Origin: Chrysomallon squamiferum | Taxonomy: Eukaryota > Animalia > Mollusca | Length of the DNA: 64,000 nt | Direction of reading: 5' to 3' | Assembly (NCBI GenBank): GCA_012295275.1 | Contig: CM022673.1 | Coordinates: 20,026,001-20,090,000 of the forward strand | In this document: positions 1 to 63,940 of the stretch, one piece after another | Layout of the letters: each line of letters starts with the position of its first letter | Numbering within the stretch: the stretch's first letter is position 1 | Notes under the pieces: model-generated | Database searches by the model: none | What the model was told of the DNA's origin: nothing | Seen by the model: only the letters and a program-made list of their open reading frames with translations | Position numbers and translations under genes: made by a program

Positions 1-255
1 ACATTACTGACTATTGCAGTTTCTTTGGTCTGAACCTCAAGATAAACATCAGTGTCAAGAACATGTCCGAACAATGTTGGCATCATGATAAAATGCCCAG
101 CAGTTTTAATTGATCAGTCTTTTGCCTTTATTTCTTGAATAAAGACTCAATAATCATATTGATAAAGCAGAATTCAGAGAGTTACTTTTAAGATATGAAA
201 TAACAAAATACACTAATAATATCTGAGGTGAACTGAGTGTTATATTTTATTTCAG

Positions 256-1306: not shown

Positions 1307-1348
<42 letters not shown>

Positions 1349-4300: not shown

Positions 4301-7300
4301 TAATCATAATGATAATTAAAGCAATACAAATAGTAGTAGAAAATGTGGATGTATTCTCATAGATGTAGCAGTAGTAGAAGTAGAGTAGGTAGTAGGAATT
4401 ATATTAATAATGTAGAGGGAGTGTTAGTATAATTACTAGAAAAAGTGGTAGGATTAATTGTCAGAAGTAGCAAACTTCGAAATAGCTATTGTAGTAGTTG
4501 TTGATATAATGGTGATGCTAGTAGTAGTAGTGGTAGTAACAGTATTTGTGATAATAAAAGTAGCAGTAGTGGCGATGATGGTGACAGTAGTAGTTGTTCT
4601 AATAATAAAAGTAGTAATAGCACCATTAGTAAAAATAGTAATGGTAGAAGCACTGGTGGTGGTAGAAGTAATACTAGTGGTGGTTGTAGTAGTAGTATTA
4701 GTGGAGGTGCAGGTAATAACAGGAGTTATAATAGTAATAGCAGTACTAGAAGTAACTACTAGTACCAAACGTAGTATCACTGATAATAGTGTCAGTAGAA
4801 AAAGATGTAGTATTAGTAGAAATAGCTAGGAACAAAAGGTAGTGGAAATAGAAAGTAGTAGAAGCTTCTAATTGCCATGTACTCAATAGGGATTTCACCA
4901 GGGGATTTCAAGGAGTTCCTGACATGCCTGAAGCGACACTTCCTGTTAACCCCTTGCGCCTGATTGTGTAGAACATGTCATGCCATTTGGCATCTTTTAG
5001 GCATTCCTTCAGACATGTCAGGTGGATTTAAACTCAAAGATGAGTTTTTGGTCTCAGAGAAGTGTATACATGTAGAAAATGTACATTGTAATGCATTGTA
5101 TCAATCATCTGTGCAGGTATGCATTTTTTAAATCTATATTGTGGCTAAACAAAAAAGATTACATCTCTGAAACTTTTGTATGTTTTAGTTAACATGTGCA
5201 AGATTAAATGTCAAAAAAGGTTGTCTCAAGGTCACATGACGAACCTCAGTTTCAAGGTCATAACAAAGGTCAAAAGGTCAGTTTATCCCAACATTCTCCA
5301 AACTGAATAATAATGGCAGAAACCTGGTCAAATTGCCTTTTCAACAATACCAATTTCATGAAGATTGGTCCAGTAGTTCCTGCGATATGAGGGTTCAAAG
5401 TTGGTAGTTACACCCATTTTGGCCGAACCTTTCTAAATTCGGGGAGCCACATCTCCCAAACCACTGGTCCAATTGGCCTAAAATTTCGTTGAGACTGTTC
5501 GGTTTAACCCATTGGGTGATTTGACATGGATTGACCCAAAATGAGATTTTCAACATTTTTGTTATCAAAACTATATACACATTTTGCTACACACTCCCCA
5601 CATGACAAGATGTCCTGATTTTTAATATGTATGATCAGTAATCAATGTTAACACTGCTTTGTATGCTTCATCTGGACACTGTTGAAGCCAAATTTCTTCA
5701 GTAAGATGTCTCAGAAATTATCTGTCAGTCTCCAGATGAATTAACTAAACCTGCAACCTAACAAAAATAAAATTCACCAGTTTTCTGCAATGCTGGCCAT
5801 TGTGTTGTATGACCTGAACATCTAGGTACTGAAGTTCAAGATACTAGCCTTCTGCTTCATTCACAAAAATAAAATAAACAACAAACAGTGTTTTCTATTT
5901 TCAGAAAAATGTTCACTCTAAAGCATTTGTTGTGTACATCTGTGACCATGTTTTGCCAGTTCTGACACAGTTAGCCCGGCCATCTCCAGAGGTTAATCCA
6001 GAGTTGGAGATTCTAAGATTGTTTGCAGAAATTTCAGAATTTTGTGGTGAATTTGACAAAGCAGAAGAAAGAATGGAAAAAGTTCTTAACAGACTCATTG
6101 TAGGTTGAAATACTATATTTAATTTTATATAAAAATAATGTCTATATCGATCTATCTATCTATCTATCTATCTATCTATATGAATAAATGAAGTAACATC
6201 GTGTTTTGCTGATTACTATCTATTCTGTTCTAAGATAGGTAATTGTTTTGCTTTCAAAATGCTTGCGATAAATGACGAAGTAAGAATCATAAACATAACA
6301 GTATAATGTATTCTGTGAATCCAGTTATTGATAGAATGCTGAATAAAAAAACTAATCACTTTTTAATATCATAAAATCATAAATTGATCAGTTTTAAAAC
6401 TTAGATTACAGATTATTTTTGCTTGTTGATTAGCTCCATCAGAGAAAATTTCAACAGTGTTAGGTAACTTTTGTTTGCAGTCAAATCACAGCAAGTAAAA
6501 AGATAAGAAAACTCTTTTGTGTTTGCTTCAAATGACAGACTTATCACACCTGTGTCTTTATTTGCCTCTGGTCTGGTGATTACAAACATTTTATTGTCCC
6601 TAATTAATACCTGCAACACCTTTTTGGAGTAGTCTCCAAGGATTAGTTGTGTTTATATAATGCAGAGGATTTTTGTTAAACATCAAATGCTTGTAGTCCT
6701 TTATAAGTAACATTTATGTTTATATATATATGATAAATACACATCACAGTATTTTAACTTATTACCACTAATTATTTAATAGAATGAAAAATCAAGCTGC
6801 TTATTTAAATAAAGTTATGCTGTTCTTTATAAAGGTGTTTGACCCATATTAGTTGGGGTTCTTTGATGTTTTTTTAAAAATGGAAATCCCTGAGTCATTT
6901 AACTACCTTAAAATGCAATATGTTTCTAAAATAAAATGCATCTGAAGTTTAAAGATATGTCAAACTATAAATATAAAAAAATAATAATTCTTTGAATGAC
7001 TGCAGCAATGACAGATCAGCTGGTCTTTAAACTATAAACAACAACAAATAAATGTTAAATTCTAATTAATTCTTGCTGAAACTACCCTGACTTGTTTTAT
7101 CAAAGTTATGGGGCTTACGTTGCCAAAAAATGCATGGTTGTTGTGGACCAAACATAAGGGTACACTGGCTCACAGTTTTATTTCAAATTGAAAAGGTAAA
7201 TTTTTTTTATGAGCTTTGCAGTGGAAAAAAAAAGAAAACGATATTTTTTATTAAAAATGTTAGGTTCAAGTATGTAATTTGAAAGATCTTGACAAATCAT

Positions 7301-19500: not shown

Positions 19501-21594
19501 GTGAGAAAATTTGTGATTTATTTTCTTCATCACATAAAATCTACAGTTCATTGTTTTAAGTGTTATAATTTTGTAGTTTCTGTCAGACATTTGTTGAAAC
19601 TACCAGCTACCAGTGCTGTGGAAATAAATCCTCCAGATTATGCAAACTATGAGGTAAGATATTATTTGACTTTACATTATTATTGACACTAATTTTTTCA
19701 CAGAGCTATAACTGAACTGTTATCTGTTCTTTATTTTGTTCATGAGGTATTTTATTTGTGTGTCTGCTCTCAAATTCTGTTTTCAGTTTCTTTTAGTATT
19801 TTACTGATAAATTTGTTAACAATGATAGATCTTAAAAAAGAATTTCTGTATTTTTAAATATTCTTCCAACATGGACATTTATTATTCATATCTAAAAAAA
19901 ACAACCAGTAACAAAATATTTTCATCAACAAGTTGTGTGTTTTTTTAATGTCAACTGTTCTGTTTTTCACACAGCTTTTCTTTGAAGCACAGAGTCGAAA
20001 CAAACATTTCAAGACAGGAACTCTGTTTCTCTATCAAGTGTTTCCTGGCAACACAATCATGTGGAATCGCATGTTTATACGAGCAGCTAAGGAGAATGAG
20101 GTTGACACACTGGAAAAACTATTGACTTTCTTTCGAGGTCACCCTAGATTTATCAACAGTCGTGAACCTAAGACAGGAAATACAGCCCTACACTGGGCCT
20201 GCAGACATGGACACTATGTAAAAATACAGTAATAATTTTTAAAAGATAAAATTTAAGAAAAATGAATTACTTCTGTTTGTTTTCCATGTTCATTTTCTTA
20301 ACTGACATCATCAAACTCTGGATTGTATTTATAGAACTCTCATGAAATCTATTCTGTCAAAAAAGAAATGCATAGGTGAAATATTCATGGAATTATCAGT
20401 TTGATAGAAGTAGCATAATTTGATTATTTATTATCAGTACAATCTGACAAATATAACAATACCCTTGCTATGAACTGACAGCAGTGGAGGTGTTTTTGTG
20501 ACTAAACAATGTTTTAAGAGAGCACTGAAATCAATACTGGTCACCAGCAGCAATCACTGCATCACATCACTGCAGTTGTTAAGCAAGATCATCCATATCT
20601 GGGCTGGTCTCAAAAGATATTAAACACTGCTGTGATGAAATTCATGTGGTGTGTGACTGCTGACTGCATTTTACTCAACTACAGGCAGCCTATTGGAGTG
20701 TAGTTCCATGCAATTGTTGAACAATGCTGTTCCATTCAAATAACATTAATAAACATGATCATTAAACAACACTGTACAAAAATAAAATTATAATTTGTAA
20801 AATCAAACACTTTTCTTGTTTCCATAACACCTGTGTGTTTCTTTTTTGACAGAATATATTATTTTGAAAGCAAATTTCTACATTAAACAATTACTTGGTA
20901 ATAAGATACTCTTCAGACTGTTTGAGAACATCTGTACTCCTTGTATTAGAGATGAAAAATGGTATTATATCCAAAATACTGTTTGAATTCTATTATTAAT
21001 TTTGAAATTGTTTCTGTCTAGGAAATTGTCGCATTGATGTTAGACCATGGAGCAAATATTGATGCAAAGAACAATTTCCAATGCACACCATTGTATGCTG
21101 CAATTGAAGGTCTCCAGAGAAAAGTTTGTCATGTAAGCTGTTTGTTTTTCATTGTAGCACACATACACACACACACACAAATATAGGGAATACCAAGTTA
21201 CTGTCTTAAAATATCATCTTTATCCTGTGAAGGTGAGAATGTTGAATTGCAGTTCAGCATAGCCTTTAACAATCATGAGCAGGAAAAAGCTGGCATTTTA
21301 AGACAGCAACCAGTTATTTCTTTCCTCTTCGCAATCCTAAATAATAAAAAAATTAAATGAAATTAACTGTTTTATTTCTCAAAACATTGCTTATGACTGC
21401 TGCAGATTCATGAAAAACTTTTTGTTGCCATCAGGACAAAATAGTGCTTAAATAATAACAATTTATTTGTTTTTTTTTTTAAATGAAACCTTTTCAGAAT
21501 GGTAATTTAAACAGTAACTTTCAACAAAACTATAGAAATTTAGCTAGTCATCATATCTTGCCACCATGTACAGTGATTGCAAGATATATATAAA

Positions 21595-21666
<72 letters not shown>

Positions 21667-24600
21667 ATTATAACTGTATATCTAAATCCTTTGCTGTTAA
21701 TGTTATGATAACTGTAAAATAAATTGTTTTCTATTTTTAATTGTTATTAGCTTAATAATAAAGATTTTTAATTTTTCATGTATCTTTTCATAATTAATAA
21801 TGGATAAATTTTGTAAGTATTTATAAATGATTTTTTCTTTGGAACAGCAGTTTTTTATTATTTCTTTACAATAATTAATAATTGTTATATCTCATTACAC
21901 AAAAAAGTAACCTAATTTTTATAATGCAGTTGTTAATTGAATGGGGCTGTGATCTTCACTGTAAGAATGTCAGAAGTCAGACAGCAATAGAGAGCTGCAA
22001 GAATGATGAATTTAGAAAATATCTTACTGGTGAGTGAATGAGTGTAGAATTTGGTCTTTTACATTTAATCCACTATTATAGCTTTTGAGGAAAAAAGATC
22101 AATAAAAATTATTTTTCATATAATATATCAAGACCAAGTGTATCACAGAAATAGTTTTATACTTTACTAAAATACATGGGTAGAGTGAAAGTGAAGGTAA
22201 ATTTTCAGGTCTTCCTTTTATTTCTTTTTTTCTTTTTTTGTGTCTGTTTCTAGCTTTTCTTCTTTTCCTGAATTCTTTAACTACAACACTGAGTGCCCTA
22301 GCTGACCTAGTGCCAGGTTAAATTTCATAAACAAATAAACCTGATAACTGAGAAACATCTCAGATCTGATTTAGAAAACACTGCTACTCTGACATGATCA
22401 TCTGAATAATATTGCAAAATTTTAATCTTTGACATACATCTGTGAGCAAACAGAAATGTTAACTTTTATCTATTGAGGAACTGTTTGAGAATAGACAGGA
22501 ACATGAACATGAATTTATTTATCAAGTCACTAGCCAATGTTTATTATTCTGAACCAGTTGAAGATGTGTTTGTATTTATTACTTTTTTTAAATTTATTTA
22601 TTGAATTATTTATAGTAGTACCATTCCAGCATGTGAATTTTCAGATGGGTAATTAAATAATTAATATCTATTATTTTCATTGAACATTTAACAAATTTAC
22701 AGTGAATAATATGACTATATTTGATGTAATCATAAAAATATATAAGAATTATTAGCAATTACTATTTTTAAATAACTAAACCTATTGCATTACAATGTCT
22801 CTTTTAAATATAGATGTTATTTAATATCAGCAGATGTTGGACAAAACGAGTTTAACATTCCTGGATGTAGTTTAAATACTTTGCATATAAAAAGATGTTT
22901 TAGATAATGAAGTCTGTATTAATGTTCACAAATGTACATCACAAATATTTTAATGTGATACAGTTTAATATTATGGGATAATGTAAGCTTTAAGTATCTA
23001 TGAATGCTGTAATGTTTTTACACAGACTTATATGAACACTATTCTAACATCATTCCACAAATAATGAATGGGGACATGAAACTTTTGGAGGAGGTCATTC
23101 AACAACATCGCTCAGGTGAATACATATTCTGCTCACTGACAAGCAGGTAAGAAATGATTGGAAAATTGAAATTTTGTTATTTAAAAAAAATAAAAGAAAG
23201 AAATGATTTTTGTTATTTCCTGTTTTGTAAAGGTTTTTATTCATTGTTTTTGGCTATGGACTGATTTGTACTGCAAAAATGTAGTATTTAAGAGGGTTGA
23301 TTTTGTGATCTTTCACACTTCTATTATCTGAATGCTTGTTTGCTTGATAAGTCACATCCAAAGCATGTCTAATATATATCATACAGATGTGTTAATGGTT
23401 CAACACTCCTGCACACAGCTGCTTACTATGGCCATAAGGCATCAATACAAGAACTGCTGGATCAGAGAGTTGACATAAATTTGAAAGATTACAAAGGAGC
23501 AACACCACTTCACAGAGCCAAGGACCATGATACAGTACAGGTAAATGTGTTAGAAAGGTACATCTTACAAGCAGTTTTGTTATGAAAAGAAATTTATTTT
23601 TATTTTATTTTATTTTAGTATATTTTAATACTTTTAAATGTTGAATAACTCTTTTTAAAACTTATCATTATTTTTTATGAAATAAACTGGATGCAGATTA
23701 ATTTTTAAAATGTAAAATTGGGTTTTGTTTTTAATCAGATGCTGCTGGAGTCTGGAGCTGTTATTAATGCTGTTGATTCTGAAGGAAACACTCCTCTACA
23801 TGTAAAATGTTATGGAGAAATGGACAAACCTTCAGATTTGTCATCAATTGAGATGCTGCTCTCAGAAGGTGCTGATCCAGTCCGACAAAATAACAGGGTA
23901 AATCTTTAATTACTACTGCTTATCCAAAGAAATAATAAGTTAATAACTGAAAGTTTTAGACAGTTTTATGTACAAGGTGAATAAACATATTTCAAATTAA
24001 AATATTTAAAGTTTTAAATGCATCTACTTTCTGTAAGAGCTGATCATGTATTGATATACGTGTTTTTGAATATGGAAATTATGACTTTGTTTTTTCAGAA
24101 TCTGTTGCCAATTCACTGCTGTGCAATGCAAGGTCGTGTGGATGTAATGAAGATGTTAATAAAAGCTGACACTGATGAGAAGATATTGAAAGCTCTCAAT
24201 AATGAAGAAAGCAGAAATCCTCCAAGTCTTGTCCATTTGGCAATTGCAAATGACTTTCTCCAATGTGCTGAATGGTATAAGTCAGCCAATGTATCTTTAG
24301 CTTATATTTATTTATTAATGTATATTTAACTGATGAACTATAATAAAAAAAATTACATTTTATGTTAATATTAAATAATGCAAGTTTGTGTAGGTGTTTC
24401 TGTTTTTATGTATATTATACAATTTATAATTTCTAACTTAATTTATATCATACAACAATCTTCTTATTTTGGCTGGTCACAGGCTGCTGCAAAATGGGTT
24501 TAAATTTAAGCCTAAAGAAGTTGACATTCTTCTGAAGAGAATTCTCACTGACCAAATCAAACTGTGAGTTGTGAAAAATTTAAATAGTAAAAGCAAAGAT

Positions 24601-26614
24601 TCTGTTTGATTATTAGTGTATTATTTCAGTTAAATATTTTAATCTGGTTAATTATCATAAGCTTGTAATGGTTGTAGTAGTGGTGGTAGTGATAGTAATA
24701 GTGTAGTTGTAATAAGAAAAATAGCAACAGCAGCAATGGCTATAGTCAAAATTCATTTGCAGCTTTACACATCTTTTTGTAATTACAGAACTCATCAGGC
24801 TGATGCTGTAAAGTTTCTGTTAAACTGTGGAGCAGATCCAAATCCCTCCTACCCTGATGGCAATTCGTTAGTATATAACACATTATTTTAGTTCTTATGT
24901 AATTATAATATTTGGTTTGGAAAAATAAACAAATAAAGGAAATAAATAAAATTCATGCCAGTTTAGTGTGTTTGAGAAAAATCTTCTTTTGAATGTTTTT
25001 TCTGAGACTATTTAATTGTAAACTAATAGTAAGGTACAGCTGTTTACAAACAGCAATAACATTTCATTTATGTAAAATTGACAGAATAATTACTTCTATT
25101 TCAAAAAAGTAAAAAAGAAATATACAGAATATTTGTGTTTAATCCAGAATTAATTTTTGTTTTAAACATGTTTTCATACAATTCAAAACATTAATATTCA
25201 ATTCTAATCTGCAATAAAAGTATTGTCATATTTTCATTTGTTACATTTTTCTGTAGTCAAATAATTTACACAAATGTTTGTAATTTTGAGTGAAATGAAA
25301 ATATAACTACTTAAATATGCTTGCTCTAAATGAGAACAACAAAACTGGTAAAAATAAAACAAACATCAAACATAGTTTATATATTTAAAAAAATGTATTT
25401 TCTTCAGAGCTCTCCATTTTGCTGCCAGTCTCCCTGGATCAACAGACATCTTGGAAATGCTACTGGCATATGGTGCCGAGGCAGACTGTGTGAATGATGA
25501 TGGTTGCACACCACTATTTTTTGCTACTCAGGCCAACAATAAATTTGCAGCATGTGTTCTCATTGCTCAAGGAACTAATGTAAGACAGAAAAATTATCAA
25601 GGTATGTAGAAGTTGTTGAATATAGCTAATTATTCAGAGACTGATACTTTATTAGTAAGAATAATTTAATTTCAGTTACCTTAAAAAATAGGCAGAATTA
25701 GTTTTAGATTGAAGAATATTTCTATTAAAATAATCTTACTGATTTGGTTGTATGCCAAATATTTCTGTTCTTCAGAACTTATAATTGATTTTTTTTAAAG
25801 TTTGTATTTACTAATCAATATAGTGCAGTAGTGGCAAAACTATGACATGCGAGGGCATTTTAAGTGACATGCGTGACACTGAGTACCTTGGACATTGATT
25901 TAATATATTCTCAAATATTTTTGGTCTCATAATTACCACCATTGATATAGTGATAGTGTTAAAACTAAAGAATAACACTGTTGTTCAAATACAGGAAAAT
26001 ATTTACATAAATAATATCTTTTATATCAGGCCTTACAGCATTTGACAACATAATGGATTTTGATGAGTGGATTGATTCAGGTTATTTTACTGATGAAATA
26101 AAAGCCCGGTTGAAAGGTATTTTTTTACATAAATCTATTACTAATTTTTATTTATTTTTTCTTTTAGCAATAATCTGAGCTAAAATGATACAAAATTAAG
26201 AGCTTGTTCTGTGTATCATTCTACATGTGTGATACAGCTGATGTTACAAACATTTAAATTCTTCTTTACTTTAAGTTGTTTCTGAGAAATAATTAGTAAG
26301 AATTAGATTTAATTTTTCTGATTTGTGTTACTTTTCCTTTAACAATCTGAAAATCAATAATCAATTTTCTTTTTCAATATCTTTCAGCTTACAATCTGAA
26401 ACATGCTCGTGACCTTATTCGAGCTATTTCAAAACGAGTCAAACCAAATCCTTCTCAGCAGAAATACAATCTCATTCCTTCATCCCAGATGATTCAGCCG
26501 TCATTGTTAAACAGTCCTTATGCCATGAAACCACCTCAGCCGTCATTCAGCCAGAGAAACTCAGCAGTAGCTTTACCACCCATCAGACAGGAGACCTCAT
26601 ATTATTCGTGTTAA
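13586..26614 (+). CDS. Uncharacterised tandem calponin-homology-like + ankyrin-repeat protein (about 1060 aa, 26 coding exons)
   Basis: Approximate exons: 13586-13758, 13946-14069, 14386-14496, 15048-15152, 15671-15802, 16078-16110, 16270-16363, 16664-16745, 17167-17256, 17490-17616, 17862-17941, 18557-18661, 19301-19427, 19577-19653, 19974-20217, 21022-21132, 21930-22029, 23026-23146, 23387-23540, 23739-23897, 24099-24274, 24482-24563, 24789-24866, 25408-25601, 26030-26116, 26388-26614 (TAA). The N-terminus GFTAWVNLRL...DLLTG...LIESITG is CH-like, and a second CH-like block is SLDDLVDSRILCTLVNSFVP. Ankyrin motifs: GNTALHWACRHGH, GSTLLHTAAYYGH, GATPLHRA, GNTPLH, GNSALHFAA, GCTPLFFA. Confidence 0.85.
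21197..21310. repeat. ~114-bp imperfect palindrome (hairpin-type element) in an intron
   Basis: GTTACTGTCTTAAAATATCATCTTTATCCTG (21197-21227) pairs with CAGGAAAAAGCTGGCATTTTAAGACAGCAAC (21280-21310). The centre, ATGTTGAA-TTGCAG-TTCAGCAT, is also self-complementary. Confidence 0.7.
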
Positions 26615-28552: not shown

Positions 28553-29858
<1,306 letters not shown>

Positions 29859-31475
29859 GAGTACCTGTCTGTAATACACTAGTATATATTATACAAAATA
29901 TAATGTGAAATGACCTCACTTAGATTGTGTCTCTGCTTTCTTTGACAAAATCTATAGTGAAGTTAAGGCTGTGCTTTTAACAGGTCAGTCTTCAGAATTA
30001 AAGGATTATTTACTGATGTGAAATTTTGAAAAAATAAACTTTTATTTTATTCATTTATTTATTTATTTTTATTTAATTCTTATACACCAAGCTGACATTG
30101 CCAAACTAGAAAAAACAACAAAAAAGAAAACGAAAACATCTCAATATTATGTCTTTATTGCGTGATTAATTATGAAAAACTGATTATTAATTTGATAGAG
30201 TAAATACTATACGTGTCTATTAATGTCATATATTAATAATTAATCAGAAGTCCACACAATTAAGTAATAAAATAAACAGAAATAAACAGTATTATATGTA
30301 ATACATGACAAATTTTCTTCTTACAAATTCAAATTTATATAATCATGTAGAATTGTAGTATATCGCATGGTAAATACACATAGAATATGATGGGATCAAC
30401 TGTCTGAACTTTAGTGGAATATCAGGATATCCGGTGGCTGTCTAATCATATGTAGAATACAAAGATATCAAGAATCTAAATAAAAACAGAATAGTGGGAT
30501 ATCAAGTGACTACATCTGTAGAAAACCAAAATATCTGGTGTTTATATCCAGTATGCAACAATGAAAAAATTTATAAATTATGTTAAAGATTAGTTTATAA
30601 CATTGATTAATATGTTTAAAAAGTTTTATTTAAAAATAAACTGTCCTTTTTAAAACTTAATAACAAACAATATAATTTACCTTAATGTGATTAAAAGCAA
30701 AAAACATTTAAAAAGATTAAAAAAAGGAAATAAGAGTTGTTTTTTTTTAATTTGAGAAGTTTGTTAACAGCAGTCATGTTCTACAATGAATTATAATTTT
30801 GAGAAAACAAATTCATCAGAAAATAAAATATAATGTTACAAAATTCTTAACTATATTTGACTTCTTGCTAACTATAATAAATTCTGAGATTTTTACATAT
30901 TAAAAATAATGATAATTAACAAATTAGCAAGTTCTAAATATATGTAATAGTTATATGAATGTACAGTTAACAAATAAAGCACCTACATCATAAACTAATC
31001 CAGCTTCTAAACATAAATATATTTAAAAAAAACATAATACTAATATTTTCATACATTTCACTTCATTTTAAACATGTAACAAATAAAGAACTATAGAAAA
31101 AGAAAGAAAACAAAAAGAGGGCAAAAAACACCCTCATATTTCTAAGACATAATCATATATTTGATTAAATTAAAAATTGATTTTAAATTCCATTTTATAA
31201 GCATAAATATATAAGCATTTTGTTATTTACTTTTTGTATTTGAAATGTAGCCATATTGAAAGAATTACAAAATAAACCTAGCAATTAAGATGAAATAAAT
31301 CACTAGCACAAACTTCACTAAAAAACAAATACTGCTGTCAGAAATCTGTAATAGACATGTAAAATGTTTTTCATAAAAAGCTATCTTTTTCATCATTTGT
31401 TGGTCAAGATGTTTTTATAAACAATATCTAAATTTATTTATACAGAATAAACAGAAATCATTAGCATCTTGTTTC

Positions 31476-34400
31476 TCATTTCTTCTGTTGTTCAACACAC
31501 TGTTCTGCTGCAATCATCATGTTTTTTTCACGTTTCAACAAATTTTTCATTTGCTCTTCTTCTTTCTTGCTGCTGCAGATAATAACAAAATGGCTATCTT
31601 TTTTTCGTGCTCTGCCTCTCATCTGGACAAGACCAGTGACAGTGCCAGGCAAATTAAGACAGATAACAAGTTCACACACAGGAATATCTACTCCCTCTTC
31701 AGCCACAGAGGTAGCAATTACAATCTGATATCTCCTGTCATTGATGCCATCAAGAACCCGCTTCTGTTCATTCACACGCATTCCATGATTTGCTGTCCCA
31801 GAGCCATGTCCAACAACAGCAGTTACTGATAGCTTTTGTGATTTCACAAAGCCTATGTCCTTAAGAAATTTACTTAATCTCTTTGCCAGCACTCTTTCAC
31901 GTACAAGAACAAGTGCAATTGGCTTCTTAGGATTTTGCCAGTTAATGTACTCTTTATTTTGTAAAGTAGATAATAGCAGTTTGATCAATGACATTCGTTG
32001 TCCATCAGCCTCAAATTCTGATGTGACCAAAGCAGAATCTTGCCAAACCTTTACAGTCTGATTGAGTTTGTCACAATTCAAACCAAGCTGTGATGCTTTT
32101 TCAAAATTTCCTATTATCTTAGTGTTTAATAGAGGTCTGAGTTCTTCCATGGAACATGGAATACCCATCCCATCCATGTCTTGTAATGACATCATCATTA
32201 TTAATGTATGGTTACGTAGAAAATCTAGATTAGCTTTTATGGCTGTATCTTCACTTTTGGGCTTTAGTAAACCCAAGACATGCATGAAAAGTTTTATTCT
32301 GTCAGGATCATTTAGCTCCTCGGCACATCGCAAAAGTGTCTCCTCGGTCATTCCTGATACTAGTTTAGGCTTGAAAAAGTTCATGAAATAACACTCCTTG
32401 TCTATGTTGGAGATCTCATTTAATTTTAAGTAACAGTTGACTAAGTACACCATCAACTGCTGACGAAAGTCCTCTTCTTCGTCTGTCCTTGGTTCATACT
32501 TGATGTGTAGCAGTGCATTAGACTGGTGCTTTGCCAGCTGTTCCTTTGCAGGTTTTGTCTCTACAATCTGCACCTTAGCATTGCCAAGGTTGTAAAGTAA
32601 CTCTTGTAACATCTTGTATGTTAATTCAAATGTTTCTTTTCCAGCAGGTGAAGCTGTTAGGCCTAGGAGTTTAGGCCTATTGGTAGGATTAAATGGTAAG
32701 TGAAATATCTCAAGAAGATTATTAAAGGGATGCTTCTTTATACAATGGTGAGCTTCATCAAACACTACCAAACTGAAGTCGGACCAGTGCAACTTTTTCT
32801 GGCTAAGTAAGTTGAAACAGTAAGCTATGAGAAAATTAAGAAACAATTAATGTCAAATATAACTATTCAATAATATAGCTAATTAACAGTAAGTTAATAT
32901 AAACGTGTATTTATTTCATTACTTTTCTGCTGAATATATATATATATATATATGAATGGGTGTATCTGTTTTTTATTATCCAGAAAAAATAATTATATTC
33001 CATCTAGCAAAATAAAACAGAAACACAAATTTATTTAATTACTATTTTTATTATGAAAATAATTTCATAAAGTCTATTTATCATTCATCCTCAGTTCACA
33101 AAATATTAAATTAGTAAAACCAACAATAACTACAATGGTAAATAATTATATCTTTTTAGATCTCTGTTTGACATACCAGCTACAGCTACAATGATGTCAT
33201 AATGATAAAGAGGAGTAGGCTCAGATGCTGCAATACCACCAGACAAAGATGCTATCTTCAGTTCACGCATACCTACTTCCCCATTAGAATTGTCAGGAGA
33301 CAATGTTCTACAAAACAATTCATATATATCTGTGACATAAAATGGGTATCATAATTTACATTCTAGACCATATACTTACAATTAAGAGGAAATACTATAC
33401 CACAGATACACATATAATACACAATCGTATTCATGAACAAAATACATAATCAAAATACACCAAATATAGGTAAAAATGCAAAGTTAGCATTCCAAAACCC
33501 AAAATTTGGCCTAAACCAAGCACATTTCCACAGAGATCCATGATTTGTTCTTTGTATTTGGTCAGTTGTTGACATCGCTCTATTGTTTTGTTGTCAAAAT
33601 ATACCCATCCCTCAATTGCCCAGATCACCATTTAGTGCCACTGTGAAATAATGGAAGAATAAAATGTTGTGTATAAAGGAAAAAACACTTTTTTTTTTGA
33701 AGAACTCAGACACAAGAATGTAGTCGGCTCTTCAACTGTATATGATTTTTAATGCATGTACAGCAACCTATTTATCTGTATAGTATATCAACATTCCAAA
33801 ATTGACACAGCACTGGTTCCAGCAATGCCAAGTTTTATATATATATATATATCACAATCTATAGTCTAAAAATACTGACAAATATAATTATGTTTTATTT
33901 TTGACAACAATTTACATACATGAAAATAGTGGAACAACATATAATGTTAAAAAACAAAAAAGGCTAACTTGTCAGGCTAAAATGTTTAAACCACTGATGT
34001 CTTAAATGGAGTCCCTTCTGTCTCAAACACCCAAGTAAGTCATTTATATTATCAATACAACATTTTTATTCTTTAAAAGAAAACAATTTTGATAACTGAA
34101 AAAACAAAACATACTAAAAAGCAACAGATCATAATTCTTATACTGGTATGACCATTACCATAACTGACCAGTGTTTACTGACCCACTTTTGACATTTATT
34201 TACTCCCACAGTCCCATCAAAATCCAGGGGTTGATGTCAAGCACTTTGCCAATCCCTGATGTAAATAGTTTATACCATGTTGAATGATAACAAATGTCAA
34301 ATTTTACTTAGTTTTGATGAAATGTCTTTTCAGAAATATGTACATGCAAACATACATTCATGTATGTATCAACAATTTTTATAGTAGCATTAATATTCCC

Positions 34401-37400
34401 ATTTCAAAATTTTAATTACTTAGACACATCATTTATTTTACTTAAACTGTAATGCAACTGCTACTTTGGAAAGAAAAAAAAGTTGATGGGTTAATTCCAC
34501 TGATGAGTTTCCTTCCGTGTCTGCTATTGAGACCTTTAATTACAGTTATAATTTATATCAAATACTAACAGTTTTGATTTTGTTTACATATTATGACATT
34601 ATCCATCATAGTTGGTCTGAACTGAAAAGGTTAACTACTTAATAGACCCATTTCCTGTTACTAATGAACAAACAAAATCCAAAATGACACATGAATGCAG
34701 ACTTAAGATGGGAATGGTTCAATGTGATTAGCTAGCTTAAGATCTACAACAAATAAAAAATTTTAAAAGTATAAACAGTCGACATGTTTCTTAGAATTAA
34801 TTTCAAGCACAGTGACTGATCCTGGTCCAGCCAAAACAGTATATATACTTTATATTATATACAATAGTATGTTATATAACAAACTGTTAAAAAATGTATT
34901 TCCTTTTATTACATATTTTGGAAAGTACTAAGTCATTTCTGGTTTGACTATTTCAGTGGTTTTAAAACTGATTTTTACTTTTGATAAAAAATGTCATTAA
35001 TGTACAAGAAAAAACAACAACAAACACACACAGAAAAACACAGACACACAGAGTTCATTTATTCACCTTTTAAACTTTTTATGAGACAACTGTTCTCGGA
35101 GGTATTTAGATTGCTGTATCACCAATAAAATTTTGTCTACCAGAAAAAGAACAGGTCTGCTTGGGTTTGCTTCCAACATATGGCTAATTGTCATGGCTGC
35201 CACAAGTGTCTTACCAGTTCCTATAAAATAAAGATAAAAAATTATAAAATAAATTACTGTTAAATAAAATAGTATATTAATTAAAACAAGAAAAAAAAAA
35301 TTCATAACAATATTGAAAAGAAGCTGAGAAATGTTACTAGCTGTGATTTCTGCTGTCAGTCAGCAGTGCAGTAATGGCAGGTAATTTTACAGTGAAGAAT
35401 AATACTAGATTCTTTCTTCTTTTTTATTTAACATTTTTTTTTTTTTTGTTAACATATTTTAGCACTAGTCATATTGAACAATGATTTAAACTGATCTTCT
35501 TTAAGTCTGAGAAATACTGAAATTATAAGTGACAGAATCACTGAATTAAACATCAGTAACTATTATCTGTCTATACCAGATTCAATTTTATATTGTCTCA
35601 AATACATTTTATATAATGTTGATGTATTATTAACTTTAACATACAAACACAAGGACACACCTCTATCCCTCTCTCTCTCACTTACTCTTCAATGCCCTTT
35701 TTACAAGTTAAACTGACTTTTCCTTAAACCACTCCTAAGCTTGCATTTGAAATGAAATACAAACTGACCTGTTGGCAAGAAGATTACACTATCGCTCTGC
35801 ATCACTTTGCTAAATAGTTCCACTTGGTATGTGCGCGGATTTGTTTTTACTAGATTATCATAAGCTCTATCATATGCTTCATCTTCAGTCAGAGTTTTTC
35901 TTACATCTGGCAAACTCCTTTCAGGAGCCTTGGTGTTGGCAATCTCCTTCTGGTGATCTTTTCCTGTCAGATGTGCTTTGTAAGCTTCCTCTGTATTCAT
36001 GGGTCGATCACACAACAGACAATAAAACTTAAAATAACCTTCAAAACGATTTATTTTGGGTTTTTCTGCCCTTTCAAAAAAAGTAATTGTTTCAGTAGTG
36101 CTATCCTTATAATACTTCAAGTCTTCCCTTGCCAGATCTGAAACATCGTCAGAAGGAAAATTACCTGTTTTCAGAAATTCACTGCAGTTACTTTCAAAAC
36201 TTATTAAGTCACTTTCTTCCACACAATCAGATTTTTTTTCAGAAAAGGGTTCTAAATTTGATCTCATACTATGCTCATAAAGATTTTCATCAAGATTAAT
36301 TCCTGAACAATTCCTGTTTTTCAAAGGATAATATTTATTTAACTTTGTACCATTTTCAGTTACTTCCTCTTTACTTTCATTTCCTGAATCTGATGGCGAT
36401 GTTGCAGTATATGCCTTTGTTGTGGGTACAAGTACAGAGGTTGTAATTTTTGGAATCACCATTTCTTGTCTGTTTTTATTGTTGCTGTAATTTGTCATAT
36501 TTTTTGTCTTACCAATATTGTCATTGTTTGTATCAGGATTCTGGTTACCATCTGGGTGTGACATGCTGGATAAATTGCTAGGTGGTGGTCTTAGGGTACG
36601 TAAAACATCACTGGACTGAATTCCTGTGTTGTCACACTGTATAGGTGGCAAGTCCTCACTTTTAAAGTCAGCAATTACTTGTGTAATTGGTGAACTGAAT
36701 AATGGAACAGAGGACTTGAGATTATTTTCAGTATTTACTAATTTACAACTCCTGATTCCATCACAGGTAAGTGTCATTTTCTGTAAATGTTTTGCTGAAT
36801 TGAAATGCTGAATAGCACTTTCTTGTCCACTACACTGCAAAAGACATATCTCACAGAACAAAGGATAAGTTTTCCCCAGCTTTTCTTGCTGCTTTCTTTC
36901 TGCAAGTTTCTTGTGTTTCTTTCCATTGATATGTTGTGTTGCATGCAGCCTTGATGTTAGGTCTATGTTGCAAACATAACAATATCCTGTTGTTCCATTA
37001 AACTTATATTCAGGCTTATTATAATCCCAAGTATTTTTATTCTTTTCTATTATTTTAGTTTCTTTCTCACTGAAGAATATTTGTTTTGCTTTTAAATGAT
37101 TTTTTCCTTGAAAATGTTCTCTGGCATGTGACCAAGATGTCAAAACAATATTACAAACATTGCAGAAACCACGAGAACCATCAAAACTATATTCCTGTTT
37201 AACACTGGGCTCAGAGATCAAAATATTTGCTAATGTTCCTGAAGATGGATGCACATCATCTTTAACGCAGTGTTTAATTTTACAAACAGTTTCATTACAA
37301 ATGCAATTTTCATTACTTTCTGAATAAAGACTTCTGTCCCTACAGTTTTCACCAATGTTTGCAGCTGAATATGATTGTTGCAAATCACTTAAAGCTGAAA

Positions 37401-38367
37401 TATCTCTCTTGCTGTTGAAATTATTTGTCATAAACATATGTTGAACAGATGGCATTGCACGTGTAATATTTCCACCATCAACCTTTAAGCACAAATCTTC
37501 ATCACTGAGAGTCTGACAGCTACTGGGAGACTTTTGTATAAAATTGTTTCCTGGCGGCAATTTATTTGTTTCCTTATTTGACAGAGGGTTTTCTTTTTCT
37601 GGGAATGATCTATTAGGAAACAGATCTGTAACTGCTGACTTTAGGTTTACCTTTTCAGCAACATTATCATCTTTTGTGAAGTCAGTCTGAGGAAATATTG
37701 ATCTTTTTTTATGCTTTTCAATTGTAAAATGTTGTTCAGCTGGTATAAGTCCAGTGATTAGTGACATTCCAGGCACAGCTGTCTGAACAGAGACCGAATT
37801 TTGTTGACATACATTTCCAGCATTTTGTTCGTATGGAACCTTAGCTTCCACTGCCTTCTTTATATGTTTTGCACTCATAAAATGTTCATGTGCATTTTTT
37901 GCACTAGAAAACTGTACTTTACACAAGAAACAAGACAGCTCATTAATATAATTTATATTATTCTGTAATTGTTTCTTGTTGTGTTTTGTACCAGTCAGAT
38001 GTTGTTGGGCATGTTGAACAGATGTGAGCTCTATATTACAAATATAACAGAAACCACGAGAACCATCAAAGTCATAAGGTTTGGAACTGCTTGTTGGATG
38101 TTCCACTACTGGAAAACACGCAATCTGCTGCTCTTCTCGTCGTTTTAATCTGTCAAGATGGGCAGGGCTTGCATTATGCTCATTATGTTGTTTCACAGAA
38201 TTGCACTTCACATGACAAACATCACAGTCAAAAGCAGAAAGATTTGAAACAGAGTTAGCTCTCCTTTTGTGATCTTCACTCATAAAATGTTGTTGAGCAG
38301 GAAATGGGCCAGAAAATTTCTTGTGACAGACCTCACAGAACAGTGGAATTTGCTGACCATTTTCCAT
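31476..38367 (-). CDS. Multi-zinc-finger (matrin/JAZ-type C2H2) RIG-I/Dicer-family DExD/H RNA helicase (about 1410 aa)
   Basis: Exons 38367-35769, 35220-35067, 33307-33177 and 32824-31476 (TGA) total 4233 nt and are phase-compatible. There are eight C-x2-C-x12-H-x5-H fingers. Helicase motifs: Q (PRTYQVEL), I (LPTG|TGKT, split by an intron), Ia (LVDKILLVIQQ), II (FDEAHHC), III (GLTASP), VGHG, V (ATSVAEEGVDIP), VI (QMRGRARK). The start ATG at 38367 is inferred. Confidence 0.9.
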
Positions 38368-40657
38368 TATTCTCAATGGATAATTATAATGAGAAGATTT
38401 ATGATAGAATAAACATTTATTTGCTGAAAAACAGAATATTAATAAACTAAAACTTGAAATTTTACATTATAATTATTTCAGCTTGAAAAAGAAAGCAATA
38501 TAGATCTCCAGTTTCAAAGAAAGACAATTTAAAAAAAAAATTTACCAACAAGATGGTAAAAATATTTCCTTTCATTTGTTTTATCACCACTGACATGAAA
38601 AAGGAAAAACATTTTCAAAAATCACATTGAGATTAATTCCAATTATATCATTCTAAATAAAATTAATTTCTGTAACTGTAATACATAAAAAGGCAATAAT
38701 ACATGATATTCTAACAAGTTAATAACATAAAAATCTTCAATTAAACAGGGTAATACAAATGGTTTCATATTATCAACAATATTTTCTGCTTTAATTACAC
38801 ACAATGTAAATCAATTTTGACATCTGAGACATCTGTAACTGACAAACAAAACAATGCTACACACATGATCATTCTATTTAGAAAAGTTGAATACTATTAA
38901 TATATGAAAACATGAAAAGTAACGAATATATTTCACATTTTATAAAACTGCCATATCATGGTAAACTTGTGAATTAATTATAGTTTAATATTATTTACCT
39001 GGAATTGTGCATTAACATATAAAATGAAAAATGGTGAAGATTTAGTTCTGTGTTTCATGGAGATTTCAGTCATACATTACAGTAAGCAGAGAAATCTCCT
39101 CTTTTTGAAGCTGTAATATATGGCTATTTTTTGCTGTAGTTATCAGAAAAACAGATTATTCTTAGTAATGTCTTTATTGAAACAGACATCTGCCATAATT
39201 AAACTTGATATGGTGACCCAAGATACAACAAAAAGTTTCACTGACTTAATACAGGCCATGTCTTAACTGGCTTGTCATTCACAGATGGTGTTGTATGAGT
39301 AAATGTGGAATTATCAGCAAAGTAGTATGCAACTTTTTGTTTAAAAGCATAGTGAAATCATTTTTATATATGCTGGAAAAAACAACTGAAAAATCTTATT
39401 ATCTATGAGAAAATTATAGTGGGCCTCTCTGGTTTAGTACTAAGATATTATTCATACATTTCATATAATGGTAAACTTGAAATTATGTCTGCACTTTGTC
39501 AGCAGAGATTTTTCTCACCTCAGCAGATGTTTTACTGAAAGGCAACTTGATAGTGAAAAGCATATTCTGTTGGTGTTTTTAAAGCGAATTAATAAAGATC
39601 AACCAGACAATGCTTTAGAAGTGTATTAAGCTGTGACTGTTAAAGGTTTTATTCTTTACTTTTCTTATTTATTTTATATTCTAAATAAAGATTTAGCCTG
39701 TATCCATGTTGTTTACCTGTATTGTCAACCTGCTCTTGCAAAAATGTAACAGGAAGTTATATTATTTCACTGAAAATAACTAAACTAATGACTATACATT
39801 TTTGACCAGTTCTAATACTTGTAGCATTAGATACAGTGGTTAACATTCTGAGACAGTGAAATGCCAGAGCATATCAGAAGGTGGATGTTTCAAATTATCA
39901 TCTGTAAGTGCATTTTATTATCCTTAATTGTTGACTTGTATGTTTAATATAAATGAATTAGTAAGTTACTGAATGAACTGTAAAACAGACACATACTAGA
40001 CATAGTGATAACATTCATGAAATAAAAAAATGCACACTCCTTTTATTAAAAAAAAAAAAAAAAAAGCTAAACACTAGTTTTGAATGATCAGAACTTTTTT
40101 CATGAACATGCAAATGTTAACACCTATGGTGGTATAAAAGACAAAACAGATAGATCTGACAAGCAAAATATTGACCTGTTGGCATGTTATTTGAATTTAA
40201 AAAAAAATATTTTGTTTAATATATATCTGTCCTAGAGTCAGTCTGAGTTTACAAATCAAGGTTTGAAGATTACCATAATAATAATTATAAAGCCATTTAT
40301 GTTGAGTGGTACTAGTAACTATGTATGTGTAGTCCGTGCGTATCATTGTATGTCACTATGTGTGCTTAGTATTTTATATTTTTTAAATACTTACTAGTCG
40401 TTAAAATTCAAACTGAGATTGCAGTTAATGAATCATACGATTCATAATCTGAAAATCGTTCTGAAAAACAAAATGAAACTAGTTTCAATAATTCACTGTT
40501 AAAACCCAATTTTTTTAAACCGTCTTTCCATTTTATTTAGAAAATAAATTCTGAATCTGTTTATAATATACATTAAAATTAAATTTCATATTAATACACA
40601 GAAATACTCGCATTTTGTGTTTATAATACCTTTGACTTTACAACAAGCCAGGTATTC

Positions 40658-40668
40658 GGGAATACCCC
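40658..40668 (-). promoter_or_regulatory. NF-kB consensus site near the putative 5' end of the ZnF-helicase gene
   Basis: GGGAATACCCC; its reverse complement GGGGTATTCC(C) fits GGGRNNYYCC. It lies in a locally GC/CpG-richer patch next to minus-strand donor-like sites (about 40394 and 40629). Confidence 0.4.
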
Positions 40669-42601
40669 AACCACGTCTACTAAACCGATTCTGTATAATG
40701 GTGCTCCGGGTGTTAGACACAGAGGGAAACCAGTCTGTCATCACTATTTTTTTTTTTTATTTTTTTGGGGAAATGGGAATTTAGAAATAAAGATTGTTTC
40801 TTTTTAAATAATTTATATAAAATACTGAATTAAATTATTATTTATTTTAAAACCAAAAGAAATATTTTATTGAAGAGTTGTCTACGTTGTATTTTCTTGA
40901 TAACACTTGTTATCTCTCACTTTTTGTTTTTCAGCATGAGCATGTGTGTATGTATTTCTGTTATACACTTTTTATATTACCATTAAACATAATAATAATA
41001 AATGACTATTTTCCAACAACATTTTCGGCAATTTTATATGACTGAAAGGAATTTAATTAATTCTGCGCTTTCAACCACTTTATTTTGAATGTCACACATA
41101 ACAAGTTTGTTATAAAATCGGTCCAAAAATTATCAGATGAAATGTCATTCAAAGAAATCAGTAATAATAATAATTTGATGAGGAAAATAAATCCAATTAA
41201 CGTATATTTTACATCAAGACGATCTAGCCTCTGTTATAACAGTGTTAACTGTATAGGGCTTACAGTACGTATAATGGTATGGTGGCAAACATTTATTACA
41301 TTAATTTCTCTTTTTTTTTTTTTACCTTTTTAAATGTTTTTTTTTTCTACTCAATACAAGTGGAAGAGAAATTTCCTATATTTTTGTCTGAAATACAATA
41401 TTTATTGCCTTATAATAACTTTCTCGGCAAAACAAACGAAAGTATGACTATAGTTGAAATAAAGCAAGTGACAAAAATCCCGTATTACTATTTTTATATC
41501 ATCATTCTTTAGCTGGCACAACAATAACAAAAGGTATTCAAAGGCAGAATTGTCCTTCCTAAAGCAGGTTGTCTGGTTATCCTACTTGTTATAAAACTCA
41601 AAATGATTATGACTGAAAAGGAACACAAAAAACATTTAAAGCAAAATTAAATATATATTTTGAGATCTACAAGAGAACCAAATAAAAGGGGAGAATAAAG
41701 GAAAACTGTGGTTTTGAAAAAACAAACTTTGCTTAACCTGCAGTTTTTTTTTAGTTGATTATTTTCCTTTGGCTAATTATACATTTACTTTAACATGCCC
41801 AATAGGTAAATTTGAGAGATCTTTAAAAAATAAGTATAGCGTTACTATTCATTGTGTCGATGTGTTGTTTCTCGTTTAAATCTATAATTTTTAATCTCAC
41901 CCATGTACTTCTAAAACACATCTTCCCCTAGTCAGTATTGACAGTGCCTCTTTCAGATCTCCCTGAACATCAGTAAATCACAGGACTGTCAACAAATGAT
42001 AAACATGTGGCAAAGGGTCCAGAGTCATTTCTTTTTTGAAGTTTGGTATGTTGGTCAGTTAACAAATTAAAATGTTGATGTCAAGATTTGTCGATATCCT
42101 ACTAAACACTTGGAAATCCATCTTGGTGTTTACTGTGCATGCATATTTCCAAAAAAGAGGGCATTTTAACATTTAGGTTTTAACCTAAATTAAACCTGCT
42201 GAAATAGTAAAAGTTGCATAAAATACACAAAATTAGTGTTGATTTGACAAACATGTAATTAAGTCTATTTTGTGAGGTTGTTAAACTTTAGATGTTGTTT
42301 ACATATGCCGCATGTGTATTATGTTACATAGAAAATGCATGCATTCATACAGTATATATAAAGAACTAAATACAGGCTCCTGAAACAAGGACAGTGCTAA
42401 AAAGAGCATGTGTGTGTATACACACACACACACATACACTTTTCTTTTGTCTACTTCAGATGTTTCTAAAACTTTACAGAAATATTGAAAATGTTCTACC
42501 AAAAATTAAAAATATGAAAGAGAAAGAAAAACAATTAAAACATTTCCAACTTTTCTTTATTTCATCACAGCTTACATCGCATACTACACCTCAGCAATGT
42601 A

Positions 42602-53814: not shown

Positions 53815-63940
<10,126 letters not shown>

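What the first reader, a model, noticed from the sequence alone, without database searches (positions are those of the whole stretch)
31476..38367. RIG-I/Dicer-type helicase whose N-terminus is an array of dsRNA-binding-type zinc fingers instead of CARDs
Seen in sequence: one uninterrupted 2.6-kb coding exon holds eight C-x2-C-x12-H-x5-H fingers and also the helicase Q motif and first half of Walker A (PRTYQVEL...FLPTG). The fusion therefore cannot be a gene-joining artefact. Three more in-phase exons complete an SF2 helicase (DEAHH, GLTASP, VGHG, ATSVAEEGVDIP, QMRGRAR). Established: this motif set typifies the RLR/Dicer/DRH family; canonical RLRs are CARD-CARD-helicase-CTD; fingers with this long His-His spacing (JAZ/ZNF346, ZMAT3/Wig-1, ZFR) bind dsRNA. 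Inference: this may be a non-canonical dsRNA sensor or effector in which tandem fingers supply RNA recognition. I do not recall a characterised protein with this architecture, but I cannot verify that it is undescribed.
Basis: partly seen in the sequence, partly recalled or inferred. Interest (0 to 1): 0.88.

Follow-up and report, generated by a model that had tools for sequence, protein, structure and literature searches.

The report
Zinc-finger Dicer-like helicase family in animals
This is a real, spliced snail-type gene for a helicase of the Dicer/RIG-I kind that carries eight zinc fingers in front and has no signalling or RNA-cutting part; it belongs to an old, apparently undescribed family found from sponges to molluscs that likely grips double-stranded RNA and would act as a helper or brake in RNA-based defence rather than as a RIG-I-style alarm.

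Summary
Observation confirmed. Four exons (minus strand, GT-AG introns) give 1410 aa: eight C-x2-C-x12-H-x5-H fingers, then an intact Hel1-Hel2i-Hel2 helicase ending 42 aa after motif VI. RNA contigs show introns 2 and 3 removed (3 of 3 RNA runs laid) and exon 2 continuing into exon 1 (2 of 3). The architecture is a family, with named members in eight phyla (sponges, coral, crinoids, hemichordates, flatworm, nemertean, brachiopod, molluscs), annotated as uncharacterised or as 'RIG-I-like' or 'Dicer-like'. The interpretation needs correcting. The protein lacks the RIG-I C-terminal domain as well as CARDs, and its helicase falls outside the RLR clade. It groups with Dictyostelium HelF (dsRBD-helicase, RNAi suppressor) and RdRP-fused helicases (99/95 in the 52-row tree; 85/94 in a 42-row tree). 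In that lineage the slot before the helicase holds interchangeable nucleic-acid-binding modules: dsRBD, a RIG-I-CTD-like domain (HHalign 94%), or fingers, plus Z-alpha in corals. Best reading: a dsRNA-binding ATPase with no output domain of its own, acting as cofactor or gatekeeper in dsRNA defence. Binding, ATPase activity and role are untested. Ten literature searches found no description.

The parts
35769..38367 (-). Coding exon 1 (2599 nt): start codon, eight zinc fingers, two long S/N/T/E/K-rich linkers, Q motif and first half of Walker A
   Evidence: homologue P0001 aligns from residue 1
38269..38337 (-). Finger 1 (aa 11-33)
   Evidence: best PDB hit ZNF346/JAZ finger 2mkd/2mkn, E 0.0038
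38158..38226 (-). Finger 2 (aa 48-70)
37981..38049 (-). Finger 3 (aa 107-129)
37864..37932 (-). Finger 4 (aa 146-168)
37702..37743 (-). Half-finger remnant (His half only, aa about 209-222); the matching place in P0001 is a whole finger
   Evidence: alignment
37096..37164 (-). Finger 5 (aa 402-424)
   Evidence: fingers 5-6 match Xenopus ZFa 1zu1, E 1.8e-4
36913..36981 (-). Finger 6 (aa 463-485)
36787..36855 (-). Finger 7 (aa 505-527)
35953..36021 (-). Finger 8, helicase-proximal (aa 783-805), 82 aa before Walker A; this spacing is 73-93 aa in 72 of 80 family entries
35221..35768 (-). Intron 1 (548 nt, GT-AG, phase 1), splitting Walker A
   Evidence: loose ends in RNA runs X1 and X2
35067..35220 (-). 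Coding exon 2: rest of Walker A and motif Ia
33308..35066 (-). Intron 2 (1759 nt, GT-AG, phase 2)
   Evidence: joint in 3 of 3 RNA runs
33177..33307 (-). Coding exon 3: motifs Ib and Ic
32825..33176 (-). Intron 3 (352 nt, GT-AG, phase 1)
   Evidence: joint in 3 of 3 RNA runs
31476..32824 (-). Coding exon 4: DEAHH, motif III, helical insertion Hel2i, Hel2 with motifs IV-VI, one predicted C-terminal pincer-like helix, stop
   Evidence: fold from homologue P0037
31190..31475 (-). 3' untranslated part covered by the same spliced RNA contig (true end not known)
   Evidence: X2 record 11 runs 31190-32824 without a joint

Best explanation
The gene encodes a 1410-aa protein with eight matrin/JAZ-type zinc fingers and an intact Dicer/RLR-type helicase, and it likely works as a double-stranded-RNA-binding ATPase that would gate or assist dsRNA defence without signalling or cutting on its own. 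Shown: the spliced gene, the architecture, intact ATPase motifs, no CARD, CTD, DUF283, PAZ or RNase III, and conservation from sponges to molluscs. Inferred from trees: the helicase belongs to the lineage of Dictyostelium HelF and of RdRP-fused helicases, not to the RLRs. Inferred mechanism: (1) widely spaced fingers on flexible linkers bind long dsRNA by avidity, without sequence specificity; (2) the helicase-proximal finger, at a nearly fixed distance from Hel1, stands in for the missing CTD or dsRBD and helps load the Hel1-Hel2i-Hel2 clamp; (3) ATP turnover lets the clamp move along or let go of the duplex; (4) with no output domain, the effect is on other proteins: it shields dsRNA from, or delivers it to, Dicer, RdRP, ADAR or RLRs, or clears proteins from it, as HelF, LGP2 and DRH-1 are reported or recalled to do.
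For: Gene and splicing. Finger class: (best PDB hits are the dsRNA binders ZFa and ZNF346). Family. In 80 of 523 protein entries held that carry a finger, Walker A and a family-profile score over 300, all fingers lie before the helicase, Walker B is present in 78 of 80, and the tail after motif VI is 39-56 aa in 56 of the 60 with a detectable motif VI (entries include isoforms and my model, and the profile was built from family members). Fold: AlphaFold model of homologue P0037 (pLDDT 79.4) aligns to RIG-I residues 244-778 at Z 26.7, rmsd 4.6, 497 aligned. Tree: family 100/100; family+HelF+RdRP-helicases 99/95; with Dicers 96/90; RLR/DRH a separate 100/100. P0043 shares a cluster with D. discoideum HelF Q86L44. 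Loss of helF makes cells hypersensitive to RNAi (PMC2175303, passages). RdRP helicases are a clade apart from Dicer helicases (PMC4791657, passages). Sister proteins carry other nucleic-acid-binding modules in the same slot: dsRBD, a RIG-I-CTD-like domain (HHalign 94.2%, E 1.1e-7; reversed control 0.7%), and Z-alpha plus fingers in Montipora.
Against: No binding, ATPase, localisation, induction or knockdown data exist here. Fingers of this class also occur in spliceosomal proteins and TUT7 (U1C, Prp11, ZMAT2, ZMAT5; weak hits), so dsRNA binding is by analogy. Finger 8 has no net positive charge in its C-terminal 14 residues in this protein. The best structural matches are RIG-I and MDA5, not Dicer; I know of no solved HelF or RdRP-helicase to compare (recalled). 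The HelF/RdRP grouping was only 85/94 in the 42-row tree, where a sister relation to RLRs was not rejected (p 0.071). The trees hold no named animal Dicer, plant DCL, MDA5, LGP2 or eukaryotic FANCM. Most trochozoans, molluscs among them, are reported to have lost DICER2 and the endo-siRNA route (PMC11114477, passages), which weakens an siRNA-cofactor role in this animal.
Confidence: 0.55

Rival explanations
1. It is a non-canonical antiviral sensor that triggers an interferon-like response through its disordered linkers or a partner, in effect an RLR with fingers instead of CARDs.
For: RLR-like fold; Z-alpha in coral members; lophotrochozoan RLRs graft many N-terminal domains (PMC8998645, passages); AU p 0.071 in the smaller set.
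Against: No CARD, death fold or CTD; outside the RLR clade (AU p 0.014); true RLRs coexist in the same species; the family tree follows animal phylogeny with few paralogues seen, unlike the expanded mollusc RLRs.
Confidence: 0.17
2. It is a housekeeping or germline RNA-processing factor (nuclear RNP remodelling, handling of endogenous structured or repeat-derived RNA) with no role in defence.
For: Matrin-type fingers occur in splicing factors; few copies per genome seen and a species-like tree; ordinary neighbours API5, ankyrin, DUSP, RuvBL; transcripts present in 3 of 3 RNA runs laid. HelF is called a nuclear suppressor in a paper title (reference list).
Against: Finger number varies from 1 to 13 and linkers diverge fast; no named member from vertebrates, arthropods or nematodes turned up, which is odd for a core factor; all characterised relatives act on dsRNA silencing or sensing.
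Confidence: 0.22
3. It is a FANCM/Hef-like DNA translocase whose fingers bind DNA.
For: Same helicase superfamily; archaeal Hef-like proteins appear among weak hits.
Against: Archaeal Hef forms a separate 100/100 clade; identity 21-23% against 28-32% for HelF-like proteins, and motifs II, IIa and VI follow the Dicer/HelF pattern; PDB Hef E 1.8e-13 and FANCM E 8.7e-12 against 8.8e-24 for ancestral Dicer helicase. Eukaryotic FANCM was not in the tree.
Confidence: 0.03
4. The fusion is an assembly or gene-joining artefact.
For: None found.
Against: Fingers and Q motif share one exon; RNA supports all three junctions; the architecture recurs in eight phyla.
Confidence: 0.01

Closest known systems
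Dictyostelium discoideum HelF (DDB_G0294407, Q86L44)
   Same: Stand-alone Dicer-type helicase with an N-terminal RNA-binding module and no nuclease, CARD or CTD; same helicase clade; shared motif Ia D[KR]xxLVxQQ, DEAHH and LTASP.
   Different: HelF uses a dsRBD and has a longer tail; here there are eight zinc fingers on 840 aa. Core identity to HelF-like proteins is only 28-32%. Orthology is not shown: the three subgroups form an unresolved fork.
Helicase domain of RdRP-gamma proteins (oomycetes, Dictyostelium, Hydra, Nematostella per PMC4791657; Plasmopara, Pythium, Riccia, Endostelium here)
   Same: Same helicase clade; a zinc-binding module sits just before Hel1.
   Different: No RdRP domain here. 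Their N-terminal module resembles the RIG-I CTD; the finger-8 region does not (0.6-0.9% probability).
RIG-I-like receptors (RIG-I, MDA5, LGP2, nematode DRH-1/3, lophotrochozoan RLRs)
   Same: Hel1-Hel2i-Hel2 fold with a pincer-like helix; intact ATPase motifs. LGP2 also lacks CARDs.
   Different: No CARD, no CTD, the chain ends after the first pincer-like helix, and the clade is separate. The 58-genome RLR survey screened first for PF11648; 'zinc' occurs 0 times in its main text.
Dicer / DCL helicase domain
   Same: Sister group in the tree (96/90); best phmmer hits are ancestral Dicer helicase and DCL4.
   Different: No DUF283, PAZ or RNase III, so it cannot dice.
JAZ/ZNF346, Xenopus ZFa, Wig-1/ZMAT3
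   Same: C-x2-C-x12-H-x5-H fingers on long linkers; Wig-1 is reported to bind dsRNA (PMC3274543, passages).
   Different: Those proteins have no enzyme domain (recalled); here the array is fused to an ATPase.

Membership tests
RIG-I-like receptor | SF2 helicase with Hel1-Hel2i-Hel2 and intact ATPase motifs | tested here: met
   motifs; fold of homologue P0037 against RIG-I, Z 26.7, rmsd 4.6, 497 aligned
[quoted passage not shown]
   stop 42 aa after motif VI; spliced RNA runs through the stop; no PF11648 hit; a profile of 16 RLR C-termini hits no family member below E 0.01
RIG-I-like receptor | N-terminal CARD or other death-fold domain (RIG-I/MDA5 type; absent in LGP2) | tested here: not met
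   Pfam scan of exon 1 at E<=1 gives zinc-finger families only
RIG-I-like receptor | Helicase nested in the RLR/DRH clade | tested here: not met
   RLR clade 100/100 without the family. A mere sister relation: AU p 0.014 (52 rows), p 0.071 (42 rows)
RIG-I-like receptor | dsRNA-stimulated ATPase and signalling to MAVS | not testable with these tools
   needs biochemistry and cell assays
Dicer | DUF283, PAZ and two RNase III domains after the helicase | tested here: not met
   none in family members scanned
Dicer | Helicase nested among Dicer helicases | tested here: inconclusive
   outside the 11-row Dicer clade (98/93), but those rows are fungal or unnamed; no named animal Dicer or plant DCL was in the tree
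HelF / RdRP-associated helicase lineage | Helicase in one clade with HelF and RdRP-fused helicases | tested here: met
   99/95, 97 SH-like, 85/94; the grouping was first suggested by search ranks, not fixed beforehand
HelF / RdRP-associated helicase lineage | dsRBD (HelF) or RdRP domain in the same chain | tested here: not met
   no dsrm or RdRP hit
HelF / RdRP-associated helicase lineage | Effect on RNA interference | not testable with these tools
   needs knockdown with small-RNA sequencing
FANCM/Hef | Helicase in the Hef clade with Hef-type motifs | tested here: not met
   archaeal Hef separate at 100/100; motifs differ; eukaryotic FANCM not sampled
Matrin/JAZ-type zinc finger | C-x2-C-x12-H-x5-H spacing on long linkers | tested here: met
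   8 fingers; PF12874 and PF12171 above cut-off
Matrin/JAZ-type zinc finger | dsRNA binding | not testable with these tools
   by analogy to ZFa, ZNF346 and Wig-1 only

The most novel reading that the evidence does not exclude
Animals carry a further, overlooked family of duplex-RNA helicases beside Dicer, RLR/DRH and FANCM. It dates to the first animals, descends from the HelF/RdRP-helicase lineage, and uses a zinc-finger array (with Z-alpha in corals) as a CARD-free, CTD-free dsRNA recognition device. It would be a separate arm of dsRNA defence, kept in molluscs that lost siRNA machinery and in abalone that lacks MAVS, and lost in vertebrates, insects and nematodes. The RIG-I-CTD-like domain in front of its RdRP-fused sisters would point to RLRs having been assembled by shuffling the same parts.
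Probability: 0.4. Interest if true: 0.87.

Novelty: new variant of a known kind. Interest (0 to 1): 0.72.

Why it matters
RLR and Dicer surveys in invertebrates select on the CTD or on RNase III (PMC8998645, PMC11114477; passages read), so this family is likely to be missed, and databases label members 'RIG-I-like', 'DHX58-like', 'dicer-like protein 1' or 'dicer 2-1'. It offers a concrete candidate for how molluscs handle dsRNA when they lack DICER2 and, in abalone, MAVS (PMC11103948, passages), which bears on farmed oysters and abalone. It also ties an animal gene to HelF and RdRP helicases and shows a RIG-I-CTD-like domain on the N-terminal side in that lineage, which bears on the origin of RIG-I-like receptors. 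The predictions can be tested with purified protein and knockdown in oyster or coral models.

Tried and rejected
Docking of finger 8 plus linker on the helicase (P0037 residues 238-297 against 298-819): no answer, score 0.00, alignment not used; no evidence either way. The second structure job was mis-aimed: P0504 is the start of the RdRP domain of P0397, not its N-terminus, so the CTD-like fold rests on profile comparison only and no fold search was run on that model. ESM Atlas: all hits under 0.9, leads only; no result was obtained for P0037. Hef and FANCM are not among the rows shown in the fold searches, which does not exclude them. ISRE-like motifs: none exact upstream of the gene; one 1-mismatch site at 40469-40480 among 6 found against 5.7 expected by chance; rejected. 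My first exon-3 boundaries were off by one or two bases; 9 frame-keeping alternatives were listed and RNA chose 33307-33177. No whole genome is held, so copy number and the presence of RdRP, MAVS or RLR genes in this animal were not checked. No named family member came from vertebrates, arthropods, nematodes or annelids, but many hits are unnamed, so absence is not shown. Earlier-findings look-ups were blank. The HelF paper, a JAZ-dsRNA structure paper, the Wig-1 binding paper and Martens 2002 were not held; I saw at most their titles in reference lists.
Full report
Observation. The window is AT-rich, intron-bearing animal DNA. On the minus strand one exon, 38367-35769, encodes eight C-x2-C-x12-H-x5-H fingers and runs into the helicase Q motif and half of Walker A. 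Three further exons with GT-AG introns complete a 1410-aa protein with all helicase motifs; it stops 42 aa after motif VI. Pfam gives zf-met (8 stretches, E 2.6e-36), zf-C2H2_jaz (E 8.8e-23), ResIII, DEAD and Helicase_C, and no CARD, CTD, dsRBD or RNase III. Five public runs hold the stretch. I laid 4 of them (X1, X2, X3, X5) on 29000-35400. Introns 2 and 3 are removed in 3 of 3 RNA runs and not in X5. In X1 and X2 a contig leaves exon 2 and continues with the letters that end exon 1. The RNA runs are one study and contigs only, so level and tissue are unknown, and RNA cover of exon 1 was not examined.

It is a family. The exon-4 protein finds the same architecture in gastropods, bivalves, cephalopods, Lingula, Lineus and two hemichordates. 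An index-free search adds crinoids, Macrostomum, Montipora corals and the sponge Oscarella; Sycon is confirmed. That makes eight phyla. The nearest named protein is from Gigantopelta aegis, 70% identical over the last 640 aa, so the window is probably from a related gastropod (inference). Of 523 protein entries held, 80 have a finger, Walker A and a family-profile score over 300. These include isoforms, cluster-mates and my model, and I set the threshold after seeing scores. All 80 have every finger before the helicase. Finger number is 1-13, the last finger lies 73-93 aa before Walker A in 72 of 80, and the tail after motif VI is 39-56 aa in 56 of 60. The window's protein keeps a half-finger where Gigantopelta has a whole one. 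The array changes freely while the last finger and helicase stay fixed.

Fold. An AlphaFold model of the short hemichordate member P0037 (38-row alignment; pLDDT 79.4) has confident fingers, low-confidence linkers, a confident last-finger-to-helicase stretch, and a Hel1-Hel2i-Hel2 core with one long C-terminal helix. Its best matches are RIG-I, MDA5, LGP2 and DRH-1 (Z 26.7, rmsd 4.6, 497 aligned, RIG-I 244-778). The match ends before the RIG-I CTD. This is a homologue's model, not the window's protein.

Placement. FastTree on 81 and 72 helicase cores and IQ-TREE LG+C20 on 42 of 81 and 52 of 72 rows agree. For the 52-row tree I dropped 5 long branches, Macrostomum among them, and 15 rows to save time. 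The family is one clade (100/100) whose branching follows animal phylogeny. RLRs and DRHs form another (100/100), including RLRs of Lingula, Glandiceps and Potamilus, which also have the finger protein. Archaeal Hef is a third. The family joins amoebozoan dsRBD-helicases and RdRP-fused helicases (99/95 at 52 rows; 85/94 at 42 rows), and these join Dicers (96/90). Forcing family plus RLR together was rejected at 52 rows (p 0.014) and not at 42 rows (p 0.071). One row I had labelled Dicer (P0393, weak DUF283 only) fell beside the RLRs. No named animal Dicer, plant DCL, MDA5, LGP2 or eukaryotic FANCM was in the trees. Core identity to the window's helicase: HelF-like 28-32%, RdRP-fused 25-29%, Dicer 24-29%, RLR 20-25%, Hef 21-23%. 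P0043 clusters with DDB_G0294407/Q86L44, which PMC4894637 lists as HelF (passages).

The N-terminal slot. In this lineage the region before Hel1 repeatedly holds a nucleic-acid-binding module. HelF-like proteins have dsRBDs. Coral members have Z-alpha plus fingers. RdRP-fused members have a four-cysteine domain that matches RLR CTDs by profile comparison (13 against 16 sequences; 94.2%, E 1.1e-7; reversed control 0.7%; weak Pfam hits). The finger-8 region does not match that domain. This interchange is the main indirect argument that the fingers serve to bind duplex RNA. The closest solved fingers are those of ZFa and ZNF346; weaker hits include splicing factors and TUT7.

Mechanism. I commit (0.55) to a dsRNA-binding ATPase with no output domain that gates or assists dsRNA defence. 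The steps and their status are in Best explanation. Rivals: endogenous RNA-processing factor (0.22), CARD-free signalling sensor (0.17), DNA translocase (0.03), artefact (0.01).

Literature. Ten full-text searches combined RIG-I-like, Dicer-like, helicase, zinc finger, zf-met, U1-type, JAZ, matrin, Z-alpha, HelF, RdRP, mollusc, oyster, coral, sponge and Lophotrochozoa. None listed a paper describing this architecture. I read passages only, from PMC9334734 (the Aplysia member's locus id occurs 0 times), PMC11103948, PMC2175303, PMC11114477, PMC8998645, PMC4791657, PMC4894637, PMC11293857, PMC10159624 and PMC3274543. I opened no supplements; tables of the RLR and immunome surveys could list members. 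The library lacks most subscription journals, so 'undescribed' means not found in these searches. Motif names (Ia-VI), RIG-I domain borders, and the roles of LGP2 and DRH-1 are recalled.

Verdict. A real gene and a real, ancient animal family. It has an RLR/Dicer-type helicase fold but is a member of neither family. New variant of a known kind; interest 0.72.

Noticed in passing
P0397, P0398, P0390, P0042, P0515, P0446, P0423, P0415, P0445 (N-terminal 125 aa): RdRP-fused helicases of oomycetes, a liverwort, an alga, an amoeba and unnamed contigs begin with a four-cysteine domain that matches the RIG-I CTD by HHalign (94.2%, E 1.1e-7): the RLR domain order reversed. I did not search print for this specifically.
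   Followed up: partly
P0381 cluster / P0474 (Montipora): Coral family members carry a Z-alpha domain before two fingers, and their motifs IVa, V and VI are altered, so they may be weak or dead ATPases.
   Followed up: partly
P0368 (Nucella lapillus): A second copy with five fingers, no DExH match and no Helicase_C hit at E<=1e-5, possibly a pseudo-ATPase paralogue. Mytilus, Babylonia and Dreissena also show two copies.
   Followed up: no
P0215 (unnamed) and P0067 (Symbiodinium): A separate small clade of stand-alone helicases with C-terminal Z-alpha or dsRBD.
   Followed up: no
P0145, P0021, P0367, P0370, P0122: Family members are labelled 'dicer 2-1', 'RIG-I-like', 'DHX58-like', 'Dicer homolog 3a-like' and 'dicer-like protein 1' in public records; such labels may inflate Dicer or RLR counts.
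   Followed up: partly
window 28556-30009, minus strand: Dual-specificity phosphatase gene about 1.5 kb downstream on the same strand; one intron (29374/29707) is removed in run X2.
   Followed up: partly
window 232-10010 (+), 19912-25606 (+), 56128-61739 (+): Exons of API5, an ankyrin-repeat protein and a TIP49/RuvB-like ATPase; an ordinary neighbourhood with no second copy of the helicase among ORFs of 62 aa or more.
   Followed up: partly
window 38424-38430 and about 40395-40750, minus strand: An acceptor-like site 56 nt before the ATG and possible untranslated upstream exons, judged by eye; not tested against RNA.
   Followed up: no
window fingers 3, 5 and 6: These three fingers share a Y-x-F-[DN]-G leader, which suggests duplication of one finger unit within the exon.
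   Followed up: no
P0379 (unnamed): A 1093-aa protein with two helicase cores in tandem scoring close to this family; not placed in a tree.
   Followed up: no
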